A stretch of 64,000 nt of DNA from an uncultured Verrucomicrobiae bacterium (GTDB taxonomy: Bacteria > Verrucomicrobiota > Verrucomicrobiia > Limisphaerales > Palsa-1400): positions 96,001 through 160,000 of the forward strand of contig CAVPOM010000007.1 in assembly GCA_963707025.1 (NCBI GenBank). Reading direction: 5' to 3'. Made by a program: the position numbers and the translations under genes. The notes below the pieces were generated by a model. That model saw only the letters and a list, made by a program, of their open reading frames with translations. It made no database searches and was not told the DNA's origin. Of the stretch, positions 3,749 to 19,186 are shown in pieces (the first letter of the stretch is position 1; each line of letters starts with the position of its first letter).

Positions 3749-5230
3749 TTAGGGTTGCTTGTTTTCCAACGGCGCCGCTGCCGCCACTTCTCCTTTGACT
3801 TGCAGGCAGAGGACCGAGGCAATCTTATCGGGCGCTTTCTCCGGCAGTTGCACGGTCACCGCCTGCGCGGTTTGTTGCAATTTGAGCATGTGAGGCTTGC
3901 CGCCCGTCGCCGCCTTTACCATGAGGTAACCGCCGTGGTCGCCCGGTTGGATTTGCGGCGGCTGGCTTGTTGCGCCGGCCAGCAGCCAGGCGGCGGTGAT
4001 TTGCCCCTTCACGCCGGGCAGTTCGATGTGTCCGGCCGGCCATTTGAAGATGTGGATGTAGATTTTGCCGGCATTGGTCGTGCAACGCCAGTCCCACGCC
4101 GGCGTGAAGACCGGCCGGCCCTGGCGGTTGGTCTGGGTGGCGCTGAAGGTCCCGGCCTCTGCGCCGAAAATAGTCGGGCCGGTGCCGTAAATCGCCTCGC
4201 CGTTGACCTTCATCCAGGCGCCGACTTCCTGGAGCCGGTCCACCTCCGGCTGGGGAATCAAACCCTCGCTGGTCGGGCCGACGTTGAGCAAATAATTGCC
4301 GCCCTTGCTGGCGATGTCGCACAAATTGCGGATGAGCGTGGCGGTGGATTTGAAATTGGTGTCGTCCCGCTTGTAGCCCCAGGTGTTGTTCATCGTCATG
4401 CACGTTTCCCAATCGCGGCCGGGAAAGCCTTGCGCGGGGATGGTTTGCTCCGGCGTTTCCGTGTCGCCCTTGAAGCCGCCGCCCAGACGGTTGTTCAGGA
4501 TGATGTCCGGGCGCAGCTTTTGCACGGTGTCGTAAAGCTTCTGCGCGCGTTCCCGGTTCATGTTGTTGGGCGTGTCCCACCAGAGCACGGCGGGAAAGGG
4601 CTTGTATTGGGTGAGGATTTCCTCCACCTGCGGCACCGCCACTTTGTCAATGTAATCATCCATGTCGCGCTGCTGCGCCGGGTCCCACTTGCCGCCGCTG
4701 GCCGCGCCCCCGTTGTTCCAGTCCTGCGCCTGGGAATAATAAAAACCGAGCTTGATGCCCGCCTTTTGGCAGGCGGCCGCCAGCTCTTTCAGCGGATCGC
4801 GCCCGAAGGGCGTGGCCTTGAGGATGTTCCAGTCGCTCGCCTTGGAGTCAAACATGGCGAAGCCGTCGTGATGTTTGCTCGTGATCACGATGTATTTCTG
4901 CCCCGCGTTCTTGGCAATCTTCACCCACTGCTCCGCGTTGAATTTCACCGGGTTGAACTGGCGGGCGAAGGACTGGTATTCCGCCATGGGGATTTTCCCC
5001 CGGTTCATGATCCACTCCCCGATCCCGGCCACCGGCTTGTCGTGGTAGAAACCGGCCGGCACGGAATAAACGCCCCAGTGGATGAACATGCCGAACTTGG
5101 CCTCGCGCCACCAGGCCATGCGGGCGTCGCGCTCCGCCTTGCTTTCCACTTTGTCCGTCTGCGCGCCTGCCGGCAGCGCCGCCGCACATGTCAATACTAA
5201 TAATATATAGGCCAGTTTGTTTGCTTTCAA
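3749..5230 (-). CDS. Alpha-L-fucosidase (GH29), exported
   Basis: WWREAKFGMFIHWG, ITSKHHDGF, LWWD, WETCMTMNNTWGY, GGNYLLNVGP. Confidence 0.93.
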   Translation of the reverse strand: MKANKLAYILLVLTCAAALPAGAQTDKVESKAERDARMAWWREAKFGMFIHWGVYSVPAGFYHDKPVAGIGEWIMNRGKIPMAEYQSFARQFNPVKFNAEQWVKIAKNAGQKYIVITSKHHDGFAMFDSKASDWNILKATPFGRDPLKELAAACQKAGIKLGFYYSQAQDWNNGGAASGGKWDPAQQRDMDDYIDKVAVPQVEEILTQYKPFPAVLWWDTPNNMNRERAQKLYDTVQKLRPDIILNNRLGGGFKGDTETPEQTIPAQGFPGRDWETCMTMNNTWGYKRDDTNFKSTATLIRNLCDIASKGGNYLLNVGPTSEGLIPQPEVDRLQEVGAWMKVNGEAIYGTGPTIFGAEAGTFSATQTNRQGRPVFTPAWDWRCTTNAGKIYIHIFKWPAGHIELPGVKGQITAAWLLAGATSQPPQIQPGDHGGYLMVKAATGGKPHMLKLQQTAQAVTVQLPEKAPDKIASVLCLQVKGEVAAAAPLENKQP

Positions 5231-5267
5231 GCGGGTGTCCTTTGTTTCACGGCATTTCCACTCCCCT

Positions 5268-5300
5268 CATAATCTTAATCCTAATCTTAATCTTAATCTC
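5268..5300. repeat. (AATCYT)n hexamer micro-repeat
   Basis: cataatcttaatcctaatcttaatcttaatctc. Confidence 0.9.
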
Positions 5301-5304
5301 CATC

Positions 5305-5370
5305 CTATTCTTTATCCGCCCGAGCCGCAATCTCAAAACGCAAATAAACCGTCCCGTGATACGGCTCGGC
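5305..5370 (-). pseudogene. Orphan 3' tail of a GH2 allele (AEPYHGTVYLRFEIAARADKE*)
   Basis: 5331-5369 equals 8190-8228 at 38/39 bp; the single difference is a synonymous Val codon. Confidence 0.8.
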
Positions 5371-5405
5371 CGGCAACGGCGGCTGGCTCCGGCGACTTGT
5401 TAGCC
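5371..5405 (-). mobile_element. Truncated attC site (R''-L'' half only)
   Basis: GGCTAAC-AAGTCGCCGGAGCCAGCCGCCGTTG on minus strand, matching the start of the 7629-7730 attC, then switching to the GH2 tail. Confidence 0.8.
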
Positions 5406-5406
5406 G

Positions 5407-5883
5407 TCATATTCGTGTGAGCAGGAGAATGCCGATTGAAAAGGCGAACGGGCCAGCAAGGGCGAGCAGGTGGCAAGCGACGCGCATAGGCAAGGAAAGG
5501 GTGGCAAGGGTGAGGCGATAGCGTTCGGCGACCAGAATCATAACGGCAATCATGGCCAGAGTCAAAGTAAAGACGGGAAACGGAAACGGCAGGCGTGCGG
5601 TCCTGGCGACGCCCCAAGGCCACACATACACCAGATCATGAAGGAATCCGTTCAGTGCAAAGGTGACGATCAGGCACAGTGGTCGTGGCGCAAAACGTCG
5701 CAACGGGGCAAAACAGAAGTAGGCCAGAAAGTAGCCAACGAAGGGATTCCAGTACCGCCAGAAGCGAGTGAAATCTGAGGCTCCAAACGCCCGGGAGAAC
5801 ATGTGCCCAAGGCACTGTCCGCGTGATCCTGGCCCAAGCCGGGCATACAAATATTTGGCAAATGGAGGTCGCGAGGTGCGCAT
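5407..5883 (-). CDS. Integron cassette 5: MBOAT-like membrane acyltransferase fragment or short homologue
   Basis: FTRFWRYWNP and TFALNGFLHD motifs; bounded by GTTAGCC and GGCTAAC. Confidence 0.75.
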   Translation of the reverse strand: MRTSRPPFAKYLYARLGPGSRGQCLGHMFSRAFGASDFTRFWRYWNPFVGYFLAYFCFAPLRRFAPRPLCLIVTFALNGFLHDLVYVWPWGVARTARLPFPFPVFTLTLAMIAVMILVAERYRLTLATLSLPMRVACHLLALAGPFAFSIGILLLTRI

Positions 5884-5886
5884 GAC

Positions 5887-6021
5887 GGCTAACGTAGAAA
5901 GCTGCGCCACCGCCGGCTCGCGACGTGAATCCCGGCTTGTCGGGAAACAAAAGCGCCATCCGACAACGCTCCGAAGCTACGGTCGGACGGGACGGCGGTT
6001 GGCTCCGGGGACTTGTCAGGC
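5887..6021 (-). mobile_element. attC site (135 bp, R'' mutated to GCCTGAC, extra hairpin insert)
   Basis: Minus strand GCCTGAC...GGAGCC...GGCGCAGCTTTCTAC-GTTAGCC; homologous to the other attCs plus ~33 bp insert. Confidence 0.85.
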
Positions 6022-6420
6022 CAGTGGTCGTCTAGTCTGTATAAATAAGTCTGCAAGTGTAATGTCCTCTTGCCAAGAACCGGCAATATCAACCTGGTAA
6101 CGCTTCTGCAAATCTCTCACTAACGTCTCCAACTCCATGCCATCTGCCGCGTTGCGAACCGGATAGAGCGTGCGATAAACATCCATCACGCGATCTTCGG
6201 GCGTGAAACACAACCGCCAGCTCTGCTTGAAACCAAACGCGTCAATGACTATGTTGAGAAACTCGCGAATCTCTGACTTCGATGCGTCGGGAAAACGTCG
6301 CCGCCAACGAAAGCCAGCACAACCACGGTCAACAAAGCGCCGCATCATCCGGCGCGTCTTCATGTCTGCCAACGCGAATATCACCGCTGCAAAAAACACT
6401 ATGGCGATAATCTGTAACAT
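6016..6420 (-). CDS. Integron cassette 4: hypothetical protein with N-terminal membrane anchor
   Basis: ATG just after GTTAGGC, stop inside the attC R'' box; lower GC. Confidence 0.8.
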   Translation of the reverse strand: MLQIIAIVFFAAVIFALADMKTRRMMRRFVDRGCAGFRWRRRFPDASKSEIREFLNIVIDAFGFKQSWRLCFTPEDRVMDVYRTLYPVRNAADGMELETLVRDLQKRYQVDIAGSWQEDITLADLFIQTRRPLA

Positions 6421-6431
6421 AGAGCGAACTG

Positions 6432-6533
6432 GCCTAACGTCGAAATCTGAGCCACCGCCGACTCGCGACGTGAATCCCGGCTTGTCGGGAAACAAAAGCG
6501 CCAACCGGCGTTGGCTCCGGAGACTGGTTAGGC
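6432..6533 (-). mobile_element. attC site (102 bp)
   Basis: GCCTAAC...CCGGAGCC...GGCTCAGATTTCGAC-GTTAGGC; imperfect palindrome. Confidence 0.92.
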
Positions 6534-6920
6534 AGCATCTTTTGAGGTGTCATTCCATCCTTCTCCACCGCACTTCTGGCATCGTGAGCCTTCGGAACCG
6601 CCCATGCCACGACACCAGAAACACTCTCGGTCAACCTGAACAATCTTCCACGTCTCACCATCTGCTTTCAAATGGTATCGCGTGCGAATATCAGCAGTCC
6701 TGAAAGGCTGGCGTGAAATAGCTGTCGCTGAGTCAGCGGACTGCTTCACATCCTCAATCTCTGGCTCCGGTTTGTGGCCTAGCATGAAGTCGCGAGTGCG
6801 CTGCGACAATGACTCGCCAAAGAATCTCGCGTAAACAGGTGCCAGATGCACATTGGCTGCGGCATAAACCGAAGCCTTCTCCTGATAGAAAGACTCTAGG
6901 AATTGTTTTGGCGTGATCAT
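6528..6920 (-). CDS. Integron cassette 3: NTF2/RhsI-like immunity-type protein with C-terminal CxxCxGxG zinc finger
   Basis: RTRYHLK...WKIVQVD followed by CFWCRGMG...CQKCGGEG; stop within R''. Confidence 0.65.
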   Translation of the reverse strand: MITPKQFLESFYQEKASVYAAANVHLAPVYARFFGESLSQRTRDFMLGHKPEPEIEDVKQSADSATAISRQPFRTADIRTRYHLKADGETWKIVQVDRECFWCRGMGGSEGSRCQKCGGEGWNDTSKDAA

Positions 6921-6923
6921 GCT

Positions 6924-6945
6924 TCCTAACATTGTTATTGAGCCG
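6924..6945 (-). mobile_element. attI-like site heading the second sub-array
   Basis: CTCAATAACAAT-GTTAGGA with no attC palindrome upstream; resembles attI1 core CCCTAAAACAAA-GTTRRRY. Confidence 0.55.
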
Positions 6946-7199
6946 CACCATGCGGCACGATTCTTTCCATAGGGTCAAGTGTATTTTAATCTCTCCTCTT
7001 TGTCCACAACCATTTGCCTCTGGCGCCATCAGAAACCCGGACTTTGGAAAAACCGCGCCCCGGGAACAATTGCCTTGTCAGCAGAATCTGTGGGCCGGCT
7101 GCCGTTCACAATCGTTACAAGCGCCTAATGCACAGTCGCTTGCGCCTTGAGCTTATTCTGGCCCGCAAATTCTGCCGCAGAGCCAAAAAATTCACACCC

Positions 7200-7356
7200 A
7201 GCTAACGATCCAAAGCTGAGCCACGCCGACGGGCGCGTGACTCCGCAAGCTCGATTATCTTCATGTTACCAACCTCATCCATAAACTCACTTCTCGCGCC
7301 GGAGCGCAGCGAAGGCGGAAGGCGCACTCGGGATTGGCTCCAGCGCCGCGTTACGC
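7200..7356 (-). mobile_element. attC site (157 bp, different family)
   Basis: GCGTAAC-GCGGCGCTGGAGCC...GTGGCTCAGCTTTGGATC-GTTAGCT. Confidence 0.8.
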
Positions 7357-7611
7357 ATCAGGTTTCTCCTTTGAATCTTCTTTGTCTGGTGGGTAAGCGA
7401 ATCGCATCAAATGTGGCGCACCACGAAGAAAATATAAGCCAACAGTGAGTAATACAATGGCCGCAATAAGATATTGGTAAGCAGGAGAACTACTAGGCGT
7501 CTGTGGAGCTAGCAGCGCGACAATGGTCGAATAGACATACTCCGCACAGCCAAGCAGCGCAAGCATTCCAATTGACCGAATCACAACTCCAAAACAATCT
7601 CGTGCTTTCAT
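7351..7611 (-). CDS. Integron cassette 2: small two-TM membrane protein
   Basis: MKARDCFGVVIRSIG..., two hydrophobic helices, stop in R''. Confidence 0.8.
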   Translation of the reverse strand: MKARDCFGVVIRSIGMLALLGCAEYVYSTIVALLAPQTPSSSPAYQYLIAAIVLLTVGLYFLRGAPHLMRFAYPPDKEDSKEKPDA

Positions 7612-7628
7612 AAAAAGGCGTGCATGCT

Positions 7629-7730
7629 GCCTAACGTAGAAAGCTGAGCCACCGCCGACTCGTGACGTGAATCCCGACTTGTCGGGAAACAAAAGCGCCA
7701 ACGGCGGTTGGCTCCGGCGACTTGTTAGGC
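7629..7730 (-). mobile_element. attC site (102 bp)
   Basis: GCCTAAC-AAGTCGCCGGAGCC...GGCTCAGCTTTCTAC-GTTAGGC. Confidence 0.92.
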
Positions 7731-7731
7731 A

Positions 7732-8055
7732 TCATTTGCATACTCCACATGAAAACTTGCCGCTATTGTTCGCGCGAGGACATACCCAGCGCACTCGGCC
7801 AGTATAACCAAGCTCCGGCTCTAACTCATCCAACTGAGCGTGCTTTCGGACGAGTGGTGCGCCGCTCGCCTCGCAAACTCCTGAAAATGGATGGCGCTTC
7901 ATAGCTGCCGAACGACCCTGGTTGCGCTGACGAGTCGCGAATACTGAGATGCGCTTCTTGACAGCGACCGGCTTGTGTGCCGCCGCAATTGCTCGCTTGA
8001 TAGAACGCTTGGCTGCCTCCGCCAACGCCTCGTCGTGTGAATCAAGCTTGAGCAT
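7732..8055 (-). CDS. Integron cassette 1: small Cys-rich protein, HNH/His-Me-finger-like
   Basis: CEASG...QLDE...GYTGRVRWVCPRAN resembles the LDR..kGY..gNvrwvC..cN pattern. Confidence 0.6.
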   Translation of the reverse strand: MLKLDSHDEALAEAAKRSIKRAIAAAHKPVAVKKRISVFATRQRNQGRSAAMKRHPFSGVCEASGAPLVRKHAQLDELEPELGYTGRVRWVCPRANNSGKFSCGVCK

Positions 8056-8068
8056 ACTGAATCGTGAC

Positions 8069-8090
8069 GCCTAACAGCATTTCGATTGAA
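8069..8090 (-). mobile_element. attI-like site heading the array
   Basis: AATCGAAATGCT-GTTAGGC complementary to R'' GCCTAAC of cassette 1; no attC upstream. Confidence 0.6.
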
Positions 8091-8121
8091 TTTTCACGGC
8101 CTGGTTCCGTTCATTTTTTAC

Positions 8122-8150
8122 ATTGGATGCTTGAAAAAAGCGTTTGTCAA
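8122..8150 (-). promoter_or_regulatory. Putative cassette promoter (Pc-like)
   Basis: TTGACA-17bp-TCCAAT pointing into the array. Confidence 0.55.
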
Positions 8151-8184
8151 GGGCAATTATTGGCTGATCACATCGCAGGACGCC

Positions 8185-10899
8185 TTACCTCTCAAAACGC
8201 AAATAGACCGTCCCGTGATACGGCTCGGTCGCCAAAGGCGTGGTCGCCTGCGGCCCGGTCTGATTGGCGTTGTGAAACTTGTTGCCCATGGGCGGAATGT
8301 CCCGCACGACGGCGATATTGCCCGGCGGAAATTTCACCACCGTCTTCCCCGCCAATTTCTCCGGCGGAAATTCCGGCGTGCCGACGCGCACGAACGTGTT
8401 TTCGTCCGGGATCATCAGCGTGATCACTCCCTCGGTGGTCGTCAGCCGCAGCCAGCGCACATGCGCGAAATAACCGGCGAATTCCGGATAGACCCAGTCC
8501 TTGAAGCCCGTCTCGGTGGTGTTGAAGGCCGTTTCCCAGAGGCCGAAGGTGCCGCCCTTGAGCCGGTTGCGCCACACATGGTAAGGGCCATCCCCCAGCC
8601 AGGTCTTCTTGAGCATCTTTTCCTCGGGATAGTTGAAGGCCACGCCGACAAGATTGGTCTGCGCGGCCGGATCGCAGGTGTATTCCAGCTTGAGCCAGCC
8701 GGAACTGAGCATCGTCCATGTGGCCTGTGGAATCGGCCCGCTGCTCAACGAAATTTTCCGCCCGCGAACGCTCACGCTCACCAAACTGCCTTCTTCGACT
8801 GTGACCGTTGTGTTCGTGAATTTGTCTCCTGGATCTTGCGATGAGATGGTGCTTCTCGTTCCGCCGAAAATTATGCCACCACCATCGGGTGGGAACTGGG
8901 GCGCGAATTTCGCATTCGGCTGCAACCGCCAGACCCATGTCCACAATTCGCGCCCGCCGGGATCGCGCGCCGTCACCTCCAAGGCCTCGGCGTTCTTGCT
9001 TTTCCAATTCGCGGGCAGGCCAAGCCGCAATGTCCCGGAGCCGCCGGGCGCCACATCGGAGCCGGCGCAGGAGCCATTGGCAATCAGGAGTGAGCCGGGA
9101 AAGGGAGCGCCGCCGCCAGGCATCGGATCGAACCGCCGCAGCCGCCAGGTAAAGCTGCATTTGGAAAGGCTCGTGAACTCGTAACGATTCTCCACCGGCA
9201 GCGCGCCGTCGAAATCCGCCGGCAATGCGCGCGGCAGTTGCACCGGGGAATAAATCTCCTTGATCGTGTAAAAGCTGCCTTCCTTCTCCCGGTACGGCCC
9301 CATGATGCCGTCGGGGGCCCAGTTCCCCTTCACGTCAATTATATTATTGGAGTCATTGCGCACCACCCCTTCGTCGGCAAAGACCCAGAGGAAGCCGCCC
9401 GCCGACACTTTGCTGGCGCGCATGGCGTTCCAATAATCGTCCAGGCCCGCCCCCGCGCCGCCGTCGTAAAGGCCGTGCAGAAATTCCGTGGGCATCACGA
9501 TGTCCCGGCCCGCCAGCTCCTGCCCCAGCGCCCGCCAGTCCGGGTAATGCCTGTCAAGAATAGCACCGAACTTCCCTCCCCCGGGATGCACCACCGCCCG
9601 CTGCTGTGGATCGAGTTGGGCAAAGTCGCCGTCCAGATTGGTGTTCCAGCCCCCTTCGTTGGCGTTGTCCCAGAGCACGATGCAGGGATGGTTCACGTCG
9701 CGCGCAATCATGTCCTGCAACCGCGCCCGGCCGATCTCCGTGTCGTAGCGGTGCTGCCAGCCGCCCAGTTCGTCCAGCACGTAAACGCCCTGTTCATCGC
9801 AGTCATCCAGAAACGCCTCGTCCGGCGGATAATGCGACATGCGCGCCGCGTCCATGTTCATCTCCCGAATCAACCCGACATCCAGCCGGGCAATCCTGTC
9901 GGAAGAGGACCGTCCGAGCGTCGGCCAGGCGACGTGATGGCAAACGCCGCGGAACAGGACGCGCCGGCCATTGATATAAATGCCGTCGCCCGCCCGCACC
10001 TCGACGGTGCGAAACCCAAAACGCTGCCTCATTTCGTGCAGCACGGCCGCGCCCTGCTTGAGCCTGACCACGGCGGTGTAAAGCGCCGGCGTTTCCGCCG
10101 TCCACAACGACGGCCCCGTTACTTTAGTGTTGACATGTCCGGCCGTCACCGGCCCGGAGACTGGCGGCGCGGCGATTTTTCCCTGCGCGTCCTGAATTGT
10201 CACCTCCACCGCATCCGCCCCGCCTTCGCCGCCCGGATAATAATTCATGGCGAAAGAGCCGTCGGCGCGCGCGTCAATCGCCACCCGGTCCACGAACTGC
10301 GCCGGCTGGGCCTCCAGCCAGACGGGACGGAAGATGCCGCCAAAGACCCAGTAATCCGCGCTGCGCTCGGCATTGTTGACAGATGCGTCCGCCGACTTGT
10401 CGCTGACCGCGACTTCCAGCAAATTCTCCCCGGTGAATTTGATTTTTCCGGTGACATCATATTTAAAACGGTAGAAGGCGCCCTGATGCGGCGGCCCAGC
10501 TTCCTCGCCGTTGATTTTGACGGAGGCATCGGTCATCACGCCGTCGAAGACCAGGAAGACCCGCCGTCCGCGCCATTCGGCCGGGACCGCAAAGCGATGG
10601 CGGTACTGGCACTCGATCGGCGCGAAGCTTTTGTCCTCGAGGCCATAACGGAAGGTACCGAAACCCTGCGTTTCCCAGCAGGACGGCACGGCGATGTTTG
10701 TCCACAAGCCGCTGTTCCGGCCTTGCGAACAGAAGAATTCCCAGGGCACAGGGCTTTCGGCGTCGCGCCCGGAAAGATATTGCCGGATCGTCTCCTGCGC
10801 GGAGGCGGGCGTGGCGCGGCACAGCCAGCCGCCGCAGAGGAGGGCCGCCAGTAAACTGAAACAACCGGTTCTGGAATAGTTTTGTTTGGCGTTTTTCAT
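8185..10899 (-). CDS. Glycoside hydrolase family 2 (beta-galactosidase-like), exported
   Basis: Signal peptide; FDGVMT, GGIFRPVWL, FGFRTVE, RMSHYP, DEQGVYVLDE, WDNANE. Confidence 0.92.
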   Translation of the reverse strand: MKNAKQNYSRTGCFSLLAALLCGGWLCRATPASAQETIRQYLSGRDAESPVPWEFFCSQGRNSGLWTNIAVPSCWETQGFGTFRYGLEDKSFAPIECQYRHRFAVPAEWRGRRVFLVFDGVMTDASVKINGEEAGPPHQGAFYRFKYDVTGKIKFTGENLLEVAVSDKSADASVNNAERSADYWVFGGIFRPVWLEAQPAQFVDRVAIDARADGSFAMNYYPGGEGGADAVEVTIQDAQGKIAAPPVSGPVTAGHVNTKVTGPSLWTAETPALYTAVVRLKQGAAVLHEMRQRFGFRTVEVRAGDGIYINGRRVLFRGVCHHVAWPTLGRSSSDRIARLDVGLIREMNMDAARMSHYPPDEAFLDDCDEQGVYVLDELGGWQHRYDTEIGRARLQDMIARDVNHPCIVLWDNANEGGWNTNLDGDFAQLDPQQRAVVHPGGGKFGAILDRHYPDWRALGQELAGRDIVMPTEFLHGLYDGGAGAGLDDYWNAMRASKVSAGGFLWVFADEGVVRNDSNNIIDVKGNWAPDGIMGPYREKEGSFYTIKEIYSPVQLPRALPADFDGALPVENRYEFTSLSKCSFTWRLRRFDPMPGGGAPFPGSLLIANGSCAGSDVAPGGSGTLRLGLPANWKSKNAEALEVTARDPGGRELWTWVWRLQPNAKFAPQFPPDGGGIIFGGTRSTISSQDPGDKFTNTTVTVEEGSLVSVSVRGRKISLSSGPIPQATWTMLSSGWLKLEYTCDPAAQTNLVGVAFNYPEEKMLKKTWLGDGPYHVWRNRLKGGTFGLWETAFNTTETGFKDWVYPEFAGYFAHVRWLRLTTTEGVITLMIPDENTFVRVGTPEFPPEKLAGKTVVKFPPGNIAVVRDIPPMGNKFHNANQTGPQATTPLATEPYHGTVYLRFER

Positions 10900-14773: not shown

Positions 14774-14965
14774 CGTATAGTGTCCAGCGGACGACGCATA
14801 ATGTTGTGATCGTGGTCAATCACACGCTGATTTGACACCGCATTGGAGAATACATGCCGAAGCCTTTGCCCAGAGAAGATTTTCGCGCGGTGCGAATTGT
14901 TTTAGAGCCGAGCGACTTCGCACTCGGTTCGGAGCTTCCAGACCCGCCGCCGAGAGATTTGATTT

Positions 14966-16416
14966 CACAGCCATCCCACAGGAAATTGGAAAAGAGTGTT
15001 GGCTTGACCATTTGAACCTGCCACAAGGCAGGCATGAAAAACAAAAAAATCAAACCAACACGGTCCCGGTTTAACGTTTTGCGCCAGATTTGCAATCTCA
15101 TTCCTGCGCATGAAGTCTCCAAAATAGCGCGGGAGACCGGGGCTCTGGATAAGTCGCGCACCTTCAGTCCGTGGAGTCACACGGTCAGTTTGCTGGACGC
15201 GCAACTCACCCATTGCATCGGACTCAACGATCTGTGCGACTCGCTGCAATTGCATTCCGGGCCGCTGTCCACTTTGCGCGGCGCCAGCGCCCCCAGCCGC
15301 AACGGCCTCTCCCACGCCAACCGGGAGCGTCCGGCCCAGATGGCCGAACAACTCTTCTGGCGGGTCCTGGAGCATTTGAAAGCACAGACGCCCGGCTTTG
15401 CCGCGGGCCAGCGCCGTGGCCCCGCCTTCCGTTTCAAGATGCCCATCCATGTGATTGATAGCACGACCATGGAACTGGTGGCCAACTGCCTGGACTGGGC
15501 CAAGCACCGCCGGCGCAAGGCCGCCGCCAAAACCCATATGCGGTTGAATCTGCAGAATCTTTTGCCCGGTTTTGTCATTGTGGACACTGCCGCCGAGCAC
15601 GACAACCGACGGGCGCGGGAACTGTGCGCCGACTTGAAGAGCGGCGAAATCGCCTTGTTCGACAAGGGTTATGTGGACTTCGGCCACTTGCGGGATTTGG
15701 ACGGGCGCGGGGTCTTTTGGGTGACGCGGGCCAAGGAGAACATGGGCTATGAGGTGGTGCGGAAAATGCCCGCCTCCAGAGACCCGAAGATTTTGCGCGA
15801 CGAAGTGATCGTCCTGAGCAACGAGAACAAACCCGCGCCGGAGTTGATGCGCCGGGTGGTGGCGCTGGTCGAGATTGATGGAGAGGAACGGGAAATGACC
15901 TTCCTGACCAACAACCTGGAGTGGAGTCCGCGCAGCGTGGCCGACCTTTACCGCTGCCGCTGGCAGATCGAAGTCTTCTTCAAACAAATCAAGCAGACCT
16001 TGCAGTTGGCGGATTTTCTGGGCCACAACGCCAACGCCGTGCGCTGGCAGGTGTGGACGGCGCTGTTGACCTACGTGCTGTTGCGCTACCTCAGTCACCT
16101 CTCCAACTGGGCGCACAGCTTCACCCGGCTGTTCACGATTTTGCGGGCGGCGCTCTGGGAGAAATATGATCTGCTCAATTTGCTGGCGTGCTATGGGACA
16201 GCAGGCGGCAGCTTTCGCCACTTGGCGCGGCCCGAGCAGGCGTATTTCCCCGGCTTCCAATAAAGCTATGGGACAGCACACGCGCCCAAACAGGCGCATA
16301 CCAAACCCAAAAGCCAAACTCGGAAAAATCAAAATCTCATTTTACCCCGAAGACCAATTAAACCCTTGCAAATGAACAGGTCAGCACCAGACTTTTCCCC
16401 TTATGAGACGGGTGTG
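14966..16416 (+). mobile_element. IS4-family element copy 1 with 9-bp target duplication
   Basis: Ends CACAGCCATCCCACAGG / CCTTATGAGACGGGTGTG; ATTTGATTT at 14957-14965 and 16417-16425. Confidence 0.93.
15034..16263 (+). CDS. IS4-family DDE transposase (DUF4372-type N-terminus)
   Basis: IDSTT, FDKGY, YRCRWQIEVFFKQIKQ (YREK motif). Confidence 0.95.
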   Translation: MKNKKIKPTRSRFNVLRQICNLIPAHEVSKIARETGALDKSRTFSPWSHTVSLLDAQLTHCIGLNDLCDSLQLHSGPLSTLRGASAPSRNGLSHANRERPAQMAEQLFWRVLEHLKAQTPGFAAGQRRGPAFRFKMPIHVIDSTTMELVANCLDWAKHRRRKAAAKTHMRLNLQNLLPGFVIVDTAAEHDNRRARELCADLKSGEIALFDKGYVDFGHLRDLDGRGVFWVTRAKENMGYEVVRKMPASRDPKILRDEVIVLSNENKPAPELMRRVVALVEIDGEEREMTFLTNNLEWSPRSVADLYRCRWQIEVFFKQIKQTLQLADFLGHNANAVRWQVWTALLTYVLLRYLSHLSNWAHSFTRLFTILRAALWEKYDLLNLLACYGTAGGSFRHLARPEQAYFPGFQ

Positions 16417-17329
16417 ATTTGATTTCAGAAGAAACTTGGAATGATCTTGTCGGTTTGGCTGATGACGTTGCAATTCGCACGTCCAATGATTACGGAGCTA
16501 TTTTGAAGGAAGTCTCCGAATTTCACAGTGAATTGGTCTGTGTATCATTGGCGCTGCAAGACCTCGCAAGACAATCTGCCTGTGACGTTTCGGAATCTCC
16601 AATTTGTCACGTTCTGTGCTCCGCAAGCGAAGAACTTGCCGCTTCAATATACAATGCGTTAACAGGACATTATAGCATAGCATTTTCTGCACTTCGAACT
16701 GTCGTCGAGAATTTAACAATCGGATTACACTTGGAACTCTCCGGAGACCGGGCTCGGTTTCAATCTTGGCTTGCTGATGATGATTTGAGGTTCGGCTGGG
16801 CTGCCGACAACGCTCCCAGCAACAAGGCTGTTGGCGGCCTTGAGGCACATTTAGATGCGGCCATTGCGGACACTTTGTTTAGACAAAAAATCGGCGGGCT
16901 GTCCCGCCGGTGGTTTTGCTCGACGTCTTTTTGGAAAATTGTGCAAATACACACACGGCAGGCCGGGATTTACGGACGGTGATATGTGGGAGAGCAATGG
17001 GCCGGTCTTTGCCCCAAAGGCATTTCTCGAATGGGCTATTGCCTTCGTTCAAACCTATGCCTTTAGTCTCATAGCGTGTCATCTTAGCCAGCCGAATTTA
17101 CGCAGTCTTGGCAACTGGTCTCAACGGTCTCTGGAAGGTCTATTCAATCAGGCAGCCCGCAGGTTAAGGGCGCAGGATGACGGGGCGAAATTGTTTCAAA
17201 ATCTGCCATCCAATTTTTGGTGAAAAGGCCATCCAGGTCCTATCTGAACATTCTACTTTTCTGTCGAGAAGAAGTGCAAATGTATAAAGTTTCGATCTGA
17301 CCGCAGATTCATTTGGTGGGCACCTCAAA

Positions 17330-17735
17330 TCAAGGCACTGCCTTGTCCGCCGCTGCGAGTAACAAAGCGGTCGCTCGCATGGCCAAATCACGATCCGGAT
17401 CACAACTCAGCAACGCCTCCGAAAACTCTTCATCGAGCAACCGGAAGTCCCTCGAGATGCTCATACGGCGCAAGGCCCTTAATTGAACCTCAACTTTAGA
17501 GAAACTGTCCTTCTCGCGATCTGGGTGGGAAGCCTCTGCTTTAAAATGTACTATGGCGTTGCGAATTGAAAACACTGTATGCAACCGCCTCCTCAGGGGA
17601 ACAGGAAAGCGCCGTTTCGTGAAGACCTCGAACATCCAAGTGAGCTTGGCATCAACGCTTACCTCTCTTAGGAGGGATGTGACCTGACTCGCGGTCCATC
17701 CCTGGTTAGCCAGAATTTGCTGATAGATCGCATTT
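17330..17735 (-). pseudogene. 5'-truncated HEPN-like protein
   Basis: Open frame runs to the IS left end; contains RNAIVH (Rx4H). Confidence 0.6.
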
Positions 17736-19186
17736 CACAGCCATCCCACAGGAAATTGGAAAAGAGTGTTGGCTTGACCATTTGAACCTGCCACAAGGCA
17801 GGCATGAAAAACAAAAAAATCAAACCAACACGGTCCCGGTTTAACGTTTTGCGCCAGATTTGCAATCTCATTCCTGCGCATGAAGTCTCCAAAATAGCGC
17901 GGGAGACCGGGGCTCTGGATAAGTCGCGCACCTTCAGTCCGTGGAGTCACACGGTCAGTTTGCTGGACGCGCAACTCACCCATTGCATCGGACTCAACGA
18001 TCTGTGCGACTCGCTGCAATTGCATTCCGGGCCGCTGTCCACTTTGCGCGGCGCCAGCGCCCCCAGCCGCAACGGCCTCTCCCACGCCAACCGGGAGCGT
18101 CCGGCCCAGATGGCCGAACAACTCTTCTGGCGGGTCCTGGAGCATTTGAAAGCACAGACGCCCGGCTTTGCCGCGGGCCAGCGCCGTGGCCCCGCCTTCC
18201 GTTTCAAGATGCCCATCCATGTGATTGATAGCACGACCATGGAACTGGTGGCCAACTGCCTGGACTGGGCCAAGCACCGCCGGCGCAAGGCCGCCGCCAA
18301 AACCCATATGCGGTTGAATCTGCAGAATCTTTTGCCCGGTTTTGTCATTGTGGACACTGCCGCCGAGCACGACAACCGACGGGCGCGGGAACTGTGCGCC
18401 GACTTGAAGAGCGGCGAAATCGCCTTGTTCGACAAGGGTTATGTGGACTTCGGCCACTTGCGGGATTTGGACGGGCGCGGGGTCTTTTGGGTGACGCGGG
18501 CCAAGGAGAACATGGGCTATGAGGTGGTGCGGAAAATGCCCGCCTCCAGAGACCCGAAGATTTTGCGCGACGAAGTGATCGTCCTGAGCAACGAGAACAA
18601 ACCCGCGCCGGAGTTGATGCGCCGGGTGGTGGCGCTGGTCGAGATTGATGGAGAGGAACGGGAAATGACCTTCCTGACCAACAACCTGGAGTGGAGTCCG
18701 CGCAGCGTGGCCGACCTTTACCGCTGCCGCTGGCAGATCGAAGTCTTCTTCAAACAAATCAAGCAGACCTTGCAGTTGGCGGATTTTCTGGGCCACAACG
18801 CCAACGCCGTGCGCTGGCAGGTGTGGACGGCGCTGTTGACCTACGTGCTGTTGCGCTACCTCAGTCACCTCTCCAACTGGGCGCACAGCTTCACCCGGCT
18901 GTTCACGATTTTGCGGGCGGCGCTCTGGGAGAAATATGATCTGCTCAATTTGCTGGCGTGCTATGGGACAGCAGGCGGCAGCTTTCGCCACTTGGCGCGG
19001 CCCGAGCAGGCGTATTTCCCCGGCTTCCAATAAAGCTATGGGACAGCACACGCGCCCAAACAGGCGCATACCAAACCCAAAAGCCAAACTCGGAAAAATC
19101 AAAATCTCATTTTACCCCGAAGACCAATTAAACCCTTGCAAATGAACAGGTCAGCACCAGACTTTTCCCCTTATGAGACGGGTGTG
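17736..19186 (+). mobile_element. IS4-family element copy 2, no target duplication
   Basis: Same sequence as copy 1; flanks atcgcattt / aaatcgaaa differ. Confidence 0.93.
17804..19033 (+). CDS. IS4-family DDE transposase, identical protein to copy 1
   Basis: Identical 409-aa translation. Confidence 0.95.
   Translation: MKNKKIKPTRSRFNVLRQICNLIPAHEVSKIARETGALDKSRTFSPWSHTVSLLDAQLTHCIGLNDLCDSLQLHSGPLSTLRGASAPSRNGLSHANRERPAQMAEQLFWRVLEHLKAQTPGFAAGQRRGPAFRFKMPIHVIDSTTMELVANCLDWAKHRRRKAAAKTHMRLNLQNLLPGFVIVDTAAEHDNRRARELCADLKSGEIALFDKGYVDFGHLRDLDGRGVFWVTRAKENMGYEVVRKMPASRDPKILRDEVIVLSNENKPAPELMRRVVALVEIDGEEREMTFLTNNLEWSPRSVADLYRCRWQIEVFFKQIKQTLQLADFLGHNANAVRWQVWTALLTYVLLRYLSHLSNWAHSFTRLFTILRAALWEKYDLLNLLACYGTAGGSFRHLARPEQAYFPGFQ

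What the first reader, a model, noticed from the sequence alone, without database searches (positions are those of the whole stretch)
5305..8228. Cassette array is bracketed by a duplicated GH2 3' end fused into half an attC
Seen: 8190-8228 (end of GH2) is repeated at 5331-5369 with one synonymous change. The distal copy continues to a different stop (…LRFEIAARADKE* versus …LRFER*) and is joined to the last attC exactly at CCGCCGTTG, which resembles the GH2 sequence ACGCCTTTG at the equivalent position. Inference: the array entered the GH2-GH29 locus attached to a related GH2 allele, by homologous recombination at one end and microhomology inside attC at the other (homology-facilitated illegitimate recombination). 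This would be an integrase-independent way for whole cassette arrays to spread.
Basis: partly seen in the sequence, partly recalled or inferred. Interest (0 to 1): 0.75.

Follow-up and report, generated by a model that had tools for sequence, protein, structure and literature searches.

The report
Cassette array between two gene ends
A five-gene integron fragment with no integrase sits between an old shortened end of a sugar-cleaving gene and that gene's original end, most likely a natural scar of ordinary recombination between two alleles rather than a new mobile element.

Summary
The repeat is real: 38 of 39 bases, one synonymous change, abutting a left-half attC. Relatives show that the orphan tail is the native GH2 end (P0002 ends FEVAPGADKK). 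The FER* end is an older allele whose stop comes from a REP end. Sister genome G003 has FER* and the displaced tail with REP and IS ends between them, no array at either end, and only 6-9 duplicated bases. The window therefore looks like a chimera: FER* allele plus array on one side, intact GH2 end on the other, joined where attC resembles GH2 (10 of 1872 background windows score as high). GH2 is mosaic (permutation p=0.01). This fits homology-facilitated illegitimate recombination (about 0.5), but no donor with a longer array was found, no record spanning either array junction was seen, and direction is unresolved. Half-attC ends are common here (5 of 8 arrays examined, no full intI found), so a double illegitimate insertion followed by REP loss is a real rival. 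Known ingredients; a natural example bearing on how integrase-less arrays arise. The scan earlier noted a decayed verrucomicrobial integron elsewhere, not this scar.

The parts
8185..10899 (-). GH2 glycoside hydrolase, 904 aa, ending ...YLRFER* (shortened allele)
   Evidence: Pfam PF02836/PF02837/PF00703; FER* also in P0003, P0004, P0121, P0123, P0125, P0126
8229..8268 (-). GH2 stretch resembling the attC left arm (candidate microhomology)
   Evidence: local score 28; 10 of 1872 background windows reach it
8190..8228 (-). Proximal copy of the 39-bp core (GH2 codons up to FE)
8177..8190 (-). Remnant of a REP-doublet end that supplies the Arg codon and stop of FER*; shared with G003
   Evidence: G003 match ends at 8177; resembles the reverse complement of the REP end consensus, by eye
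8069..8177 (-). Integron platform A (attI-like site and upstream region, intI lost)
   Evidence: 89% and 85% identical to G000:C12:21134 and C5:202225; the C5 copy faces an intI 5' remnant
7732..8055 (-). Cassette 1 ORF, 107 aa, no family at E<=0.001
7629..7730 (-). Full attC
   Evidence: hairpin z=-3.8; both arms
7351..7629 (-). Cassette 2 ORF, 92 aa, no family
7200..7356 (-). Full long-type attC
   Evidence: about 80% to three C5 copies; both arms
6925..7056 (-). Second, different attI-like platform inside the array; the array is a composite of two integron fragments
   Evidence: 80% to G020 (L030), where it lies between a divergent intI-like 5' remnant and a homologue of cassette 4
6528..6920 (-). 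Cassette 3 ORF, about 130 aa, weak DnaJ zinc-finger hit below cut-off
6432..6533 (-). Full attC
   Evidence: hairpin z=-3.2
6016..6420 (-). Cassette 4 ORF, 134 aa, no family over cut-off
   Evidence: 86% DNA match in G020
5887..6021 (-). Full attC with a longer loop
   Evidence: both arms; fold alone not significant, z=-0.65
5407..5883 (-). Cassette 5 ORF, 158 aa, weak MBOAT hit below cut-off
   Evidence: E=0.0019; 4 differences in 329 nt to a contig of run X2
5370..5405 (-). Left-half attC, cut about 35 nt in
5331..5369 (-). Distal (orphan) copy of the 39-bp core
5305..5330 (-). Native GH2 tail (I)AARADKE*, displaced; no start codon
   Evidence: homologous to P0002 VAPGADKK* and to the tail upstream of GH29 in G003
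3749..5230 (-). GH29 alpha-L-fucosidase, downstream flank
   Evidence: PF01120; 93% DNA identity and same neighbours in G003

Best explanation
The locus is a recombination scar between two alleles of one locus. Step 1 (well supported): the ancestral GH2 ended FE(V/I)A..ADK(K/E)* just upstream of GH29. Step 2 (supported by G003): long ago a REP doublet entered the last codons, giving the FER* allele with the tail pushed downstream. Step 3 (inferred): an integron fragment lacking intI was joined into the left REP end of a FER* allele, 10 bases past the stop. Step 4 (inferred): this array-bearing allele recombined with an intact allele, by homology on one side (GH2 body, or GH29 if the intact allele was the incoming DNA) and by an illegitimate join on the other, between an attC left arm and the attC-like stretch of GH2 just upstream of the last 13 conserved codons. 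That removes the distal array and REP end and leaves 39 bp of fresh GH2 sequence plus the native tail as an orphan. This is homology-facilitated illegitimate recombination (HFIR) or its circle-and-single-crossover equivalent. No integrase, transposase or dedicated site is needed; cassette genes keep their platform but are frozen unless an IntI arrives in trans.
For: Most of the 120 listed homologues carry a 6-10 residue tail after the FE/FD motif and the closest tailed one, P0002, matches the orphan. X5 contig joins 5320 to 8191 through 11 letters that read as a variant tail. G003 is syntenic on both flanks, shares the FER* end to 8177, and its right REP end abuts the tail with only 6-9 duplicated bases, so the window's extra ~30 bp cannot simply descend from a G003-type right side. 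The orphan is better conserved than an old neutral copy should be: fourfold-site divergence G000/G003 is 0.13-0.21, giving P(<=1 of 39) of 0.17-0.04 at 8-12% per site. The one difference is synonymous. attC/GH2 similarity at the join: 10 of 1872 background windows. GH2 residues 716-813 share 5 derived states with intact-tail P0002 and 1 with FER* alleles, residues 1-700 share 1 and 11; permutation p=0.01. comEC and dprA are present.
Against: No donor allele with a longer array was found. The mosaic test uses 18 protein sites and shows exchange near the 3' end, not the predicted crossover itself. Intergenic DNA after the tail is only a few percent divergent between G000 and G003, which weakens the age argument (P=0.41 at 5% per site). 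The real half-attC shares fewer bases with GH2 than the consensus attC does (two changes next to the join). Half-attC ends occur at 4 other arrays in this genome, 3 of them with no flanking repeat, so the right junction may date from the original insertion. The base after FE in the orphan matches the REP-derived base of FER*, not the base seen in G003's tail and in X5. The X5 joint is one contig at depth 3.1 laid at 80% likeness and may be another species. comEC and dprA were also found in 10 of 14 control genomes.
Confidence: 0.5

Rival explanations
1. One double illegitimate insertion within a single genome: a linear integron fragment (broken near the intI start and inside an attC) joined a FER* allele at two staggered microhomologies, duplicating about 53 bp (core plus REP end). 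The distal REP doublet was later lost between its short flanking repeats, leaving core plus tail.
For: Both ends show the signature seen at other arrays here: intI cut in its 5' part and, in 5 of 8 arrays, a left-half attC. A possible 5-nt overlap exists at the left join (8177-8181) between the G003 flank and the C12 copy. Explains a young orphan and the base after FE. REP-doublet excision is reported in Pseudomonas (PMC3116915, passages).
Against: Needs a near-precise REP loss after the insertion. No other array of 8 shows a duplication of unique host sequence (the C13 repeat is a dispersed family). SPDIR inserts are about 3-100 bp (10.1101/2023.11.22.568220, passages), far below 2.8 kb. Does not predict a synonymous difference or the mosaic tract. 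The C12 bases in the 5-nt overlap may belong to another repeat family.
Confidence: 0.25
2. An old, longer duplication of the GH2 end arose in the common ancestor of the FER* lineages; the array later replaced the interval and joined the orphan at the attC-like stretch, while G003 eroded its copy through a REP-adjacent deletion.
For: The 6-9 bp repeat around G003's doublet is atypical: the doublets in G000 with both ends found (8 rows, 7 loci) share at most 4 flanking bases. Local intergenic divergence is low.
Against: Orphan 38 of 39 identical, P about 0.04-0.17 at coding-region neutral rates; needs an extra deletion in G003; the one metagenome scan for the core found only a G001-type intact allele.
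Confidence: 0.12
3. A dedicated recombinase put the array here: IntI at a secondary (attG) site, a transposon making a long target duplication, or an island integrase carrying a replacement 3' end.
For: Direct repeat of a gene 3' end is the classic island layout (recalled). IntI inserts cassettes at GWT sites (10.1101/2022.09.11.507474, Discussion). The internal join at 7202 does fall at an attC core.
Against: The outer right join is mid-attC, not at the G|TT core; the left join is upstream of attI; no integrase or transposase in the interval, no terminal inverted repeats; no full intI found in the genome; FER* exists without the array.
Confidence: 0.05
4. Assembly chimera of two strains, one with the array and one intact.
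For: The genome is a metagenome-type bin (88% complete); no listed record spans either array junction.
Against: 551-kb contig in an 18-contig assembly; both flanks syntenic with G003; the join has biological microhomology and a one-base difference; run X1 holds zero-difference pieces of GH29, two cassettes and GH2 (possibly the source sample, so not independent).
Confidence: 0.05

Closest known systems
CALIN (cluster of attC sites lacking integron-integrase; 10.1101/030866, passages)
   Same: Four full attC sites, no neighbouring intI, small array in a chromosome.
   Different: Keeps two attI-like platforms, ends in half an attC, and both outer junctions can be read; illegitimate capture of an integron fragment is not among the four origins listed in the passage read.
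Homology-facilitated illegitimate recombination (Acinetobacter, Streptococcus, Pseudomonas; seen only as described in PMC6382021 and PMC5361080, passages)
   Same: One homologous anchor plus one short-homology join; leaves an orphan piece of the old locus downstream.
   Different: Inferred from a natural genome, not observed; illegitimate end lies in an attC arm; donor and direction unknown.
Displacement of T6SS effector and Rhs 3' ends leaving orphan modules (PMC5361080, passages)
   Same: New 3' DNA replaces the old end and strands the old end downstream; HFIR proposed there too.
   Different: Here the displaced piece is 65 bp of a housekeeping-type hydrolase and the cargo is a cassette array; no sign of repeated turnover at this site.
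Integrase-independent transfer of integrons and arrays by transformation and homologous recombination (PMC3410848, passages)
   Same: Arrays move without IntI.
   Different: Those transfers used homology on both sides or transposition.
IntI insertion at attG sites, SALINs (10.1101/2022.09.11.507474, abstract and Discussion)
   Same: Produces cassettes away from an integrase.
   Different: Cuts at GWT and carries no attI platform or long duplication; outer junctions here do not fit.
REPINs (PMC3116915, passages)
   Same: Inverted REP doublet, genus-wide, target for IS insertion; accounts for the FER* allele.
   Different: Family not typed; link to a RAYT not shown.

Membership tests
CALIN | At least two attC sites | tested here: met
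   Four sites with both arms plus one half; two fold at z=-3.8 and -3.2, one at -0.65, one not folded
CALIN | No neighbouring intI | tested here: met
   No TIGR02249 match over cut-off in the genome; best tblastn E-value 0.84 in the window with a full IntI from G002
Complete integron | Intact intI next to attI | tested here: not met
Complete integron | attI and Pc | tested here: inconclusive
   attI-like by homology to sites facing intI remnants; the promoter scan listed no minus-strand site in 8069-8177
HFIR product | Short or extended microhomology at the illegitimate join | tested here: met
   10 of 1872 background windows score as high; 6 exact bases against the consensus attC, fewer against the actual half site
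HFIR product | Homologous crossover on the other side | tested here: inconclusive
   Mosaic tract at residues 716-813, p=0.01, protein level only
HFIR product | Both parental alleles exist | tested here: inconclusive
   Intact type found; FER* without array found; FER* with longer array not found
HFIR product | RecA-dependent uptake of DNA by transformation | not testable with these tools
   comEC and dprA present but common in controls
IntI secondary-site (attG) insertion | Outer join at the attC G|TT core with attC intact | tested here: not met
   Right join is about 35 nt into the left arm
Transposon or integrative island | Own transposase or integrase, terminal repeats | tested here: not met
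   None in 5370-8189
REPIN-type doublet (G003 interval, remnant at 8177-8190) | Inverted pair of a multicopy REP with defined ends | tested here: met
   Multicopy in 6 of 6 genus genomes; end consensus from 14 copies; left arm is degenerate and matched by eye
REPIN-type doublet (G003 interval, remnant at 8177-8190) | Cognate RAYT | tested here: inconclusive
   10 Y1_Tnp matches in G000, none typed or linked

The most novel reading that the evidence does not exclude
In this verrucomicrobial genus, integrase-less mini-arrays are routinely seeded around the chromosome as fragments that start in the 5' end of intI and break inside an attC hairpin, and are fixed by homology-anchored illegitimate recombination using gene ends or REP-like hairpins as anchors. 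That would be an additional, integrase-independent origin for CALINs, with the half-attC as its diagnostic scar, and this locus the clearest worked example.
Probability: 0.2. Interest if true: 0.65.

Novelty: new variant of a known kind. Interest (0 to 1): 0.36.

Why it matters
How arrays without an integrase arise is an open question (10.1101/030866 lists four candidate routes). This locus preserves readable junctions and has identifiable parental allele types, so it offers a testable natural case of array movement or trimming by host recombination alone. Alone it is one scar made of known parts. It gains weight only if the genome-wide pattern (intI 5' remnant, short array, half attC) proves to share the mechanism. 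Two paper searches returned no report of HFIR at an attC; subscription journals are largely missing from that library.

Tried and rejected
Paralogue fusion: rejected, the next GH2 in the genome is 33-36% identical and the core occurs only twice. G003's right side as a decayed copy of the 39-bp core: rejected, those bases match the REP end consensus. Array as old as FER*: disfavoured, cassette 5 differs at 4 of 329 nt from a copy in run X2 and 12 of 456 in X6, where it lies in another context. C5:224126 as a degenerate full attC: not supported (p=0.86). C13 100-bp repeat as a target duplication: rejected, the two copies are 88% alike, no closer than to a copy on C4. Long duplications as a rule for arrays here: 2 of 8 only. 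Donor searches that found nothing: metagenome pattern scan (1 locus, G001-type intact allele), genome-contig scan with P0002 (80 loci, best 84%, none its own), platform A in family, order and viral contigs. The DNA around P0002 could not be obtained, so its adjacency to GH29 is unknown. Sequencing runs held at most 11% of the words; 4 of 22 were laid, as contigs only. Rfam: 0 matches. Empty sites for the other arrays: not recovered; G003 carries the C9 cassette too. The primary HFIR paper PMC122324 was not held. No supplements were read.
Full report
OBSERVATION. On the minus strand the order is GH2 (8185-10899), a cassette array, then GH29 (3749-5230). Bases 8190-8228 recur at 5331-5369 with one synonymous change, far beyond chance (about 1e-11). 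The distal copy runs on in frame to a stop at 5305-5307 and is preceded by an attC left arm with no partner arm. The window is G000:C7:96001-160000, in an 18-contig, 6.96-Mb genome. Sources name a close homologue as Verrucomicrobiota.

ANATOMY. The array has five ORFs, none with a Pfam family over cut-off, four attC sites with both arms and one half site. It begins with a 109-bp platform that is 89% and 85% identical to two other places in the genome, one facing an intI 5' remnant. A second, unrelated platform lies inside at 6925-7056; in G020 its homologue sits between an intI-like remnant and a homologue of cassette 4. So the array is a composite of two integron fragments. No full intI was found in G000 (88% complete); 1 of 6 genus genomes has one. 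It meets the CALIN definition.

WHICH END IS NATIVE. Of 120 listed homologues most have a short tail after the FE/FD motif; P0002 (88% over the last 205 residues) ends FEVAPGADKK, matching the orphan FEIAARADKE. One contig of run X5 joins window 5320 to 8191 through 11 letters that read as a variant tail (depth 3.1, 80% likeness setting, side length not shown). The orphan is thus the native end. FER* is derived but not rare: it ends P0001, P0003, P0004, P0121, P0123, P0125 and P0126.

WHERE FER* CAME FROM. G003, a sister species, is syntenic on both flanks, with a contig break in the interval. Its GH2 ends FER* and matches the window to 8177; upstream of its GH29 lies the same tail. Both contig ends carry genus-wide REP sequence and the ends of a multicopy element, not integron DNA; the gap itself is unseen. 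The REP family has a defined end (14 copies). G003's right side is that end, set directly against the tail; the stop of FER* in both genomes resembles the same end in inverted orientation (degenerate, matched by eye). Contigs in X6 and X2 also stop matching at 8177 and 8187 and go on with 74 and 89 other letters. FER* with a displaced tail therefore predates the array and does not need it.

THE PUZZLE AND THE BEST ANSWER. The window has the FER*/REP scar on the left but 39 bp of GH2 on the right, where G003 has 6-9. The extra bases look young: fourfold-site divergence between the two genomes is 0.13-0.21 over five genes, so an old neutral copy would show at most one change with P of 0.04-0.17, though P=0.41 if the low intergenic rate applies. 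The attC left arm resembles GH2 just upstream of the core (score reached by 10 of 1872 background windows). The simplest reading is a chimera of an array-bearing FER* allele and an intact allele, joined by homology on one side and by this resemblance on the other. GH2 has indeed exchanged DNA with an intact-tail lineage: polarised protein sites side with FER* alleles 11 to 1 in residues 1-700 and with P0002 5 to 1 in 716-813 (permutation p=0.01 over breakpoints, 18 sites); trees place the window with FER* alleles in the N-terminal part (89/93) and leave the C-terminal part unresolved. The product is the same whether the array came in anchored on GH2, the intact end came in anchored on GH29 and trimmed a resident array, or a circle closed at the microhomology and integrated through the core. 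I put 0.5 on this family of routes.

AGAINST. No donor was found. No listed record spans either array junction. Left-half attCs end 5 of the 8 arrays examined in this genome (window, C5:224126, C9, C12, C13), cut 30-45 nt in; of the four others, three have no flanking repeat and C13's is a dispersed hairpin family. So breakage inside attC is a general feature here and the right join may have formed at first insertion: a staggered double illegitimate insertion followed by REP loss gives the same product (0.25). An old long duplication eroded in G003 remains possible (0.12). attC hairpins are described as liable to slippage or SbcCD cleavage (PMC8946536, passages), which could focus breaks there under any model; this is inference.

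COMPARISON WITH WHAT IS KNOWN. HFIR is established in laboratory transformation (as described in PMC6382021 and PMC5361080, passages; the primary paper was not held) and has been proposed for orphan T6SS and Rhs ends. Integrase-independent transfer of arrays by homologous recombination is shown in PMC3410848 (passages). CALINs and four candidate origins are in 10.1101/030866 (passages); attG insertion in 10.1101/2022.09.11.507474 (abstract and Discussion); dispersed CALINs in Xanthomonas in 10.1101/2025.06.18.660453 (passages). Searches returned no report of an HFIR-type join at an attC. It works like HFIR; membership is not proven, because the homologous crossover and the donor are unshown.

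VERDICT. Real, natural, and explained by known processes acting in sequence. Not a new element. Interest 0.36. The wider pattern in the genus is the better lead: many intI-truncated mini-arrays, with 13 of 20 remnants of one platform type ending within 18 bases of each other in intI (loci chosen from BLAST hits, 20 of 28 examined carried the remnant; my notebook's '13 of 16' was a miscount).

Noticed in passing
G000:C6:264820-265020, C5:295931-296134; L198, L201-L206, L208-L210, L213 (G002-G005): intI 5' remnants of one platform type stop within 18 bases of each other near codon 70 in 13 of 20 copies across the genus, mostly with different sequence beyond. Either a few ancestral truncations copied many times or a preferred break site inside intI.
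   Followed up: partly
G000:C5:224126, C9:299406, C12:21580, C13:107251; L204, L214, L210: Arrays ending in a left-part attC, cut 30-45 nt in for the G000 cases; similar truncated terminal attCs in G003. The C9 cassette region is shared with G003, so it is old.
   Followed up: partly
G000:C13:106702-107389: One cassette ORF plus half attC between two 88%-identical copies of a 100-bp hairpin repeat family, with no attI seen; could be the same kind of scar with a repeat as anchor.
   Followed up: partly
window 6925-7202: An attC is followed at its core by about 145 bp of unassigned DNA and then a second attI-like platform: two integron fragments fused, possibly by IntI at a secondary site.
   Followed up: partly
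window 5267-5304, 2429-2466, 333-370: AT-rich hexamer repeat tracts, the first directly after the orphan stop and conserved in G003. Earlier scan notes read such tracts as decayed hairpin cassettes; not tested here.
   Followed up: no
window 14949-19102: Two copies of a DUF4372/DDE transposase (409 aa) 2770 bp apart around low-GC ORFs: a composite-transposon layout.
   Followed up: no
GH2 residues about 600-780 (window about 8560-9100): Hypervariable segment: 56-88% identity among alleles that are over 90% identical in the flanking blocks, suggesting repeated segment exchange.
   Followed up: partly
G003:C67:1-110 and C69:30655-30775 (L038, L037): Ends of a multicopy element with about 22-bp inverted repeats, inserted in REP sequence, also in G001; breaks both assemblies. 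Not typed.
   Followed up: no
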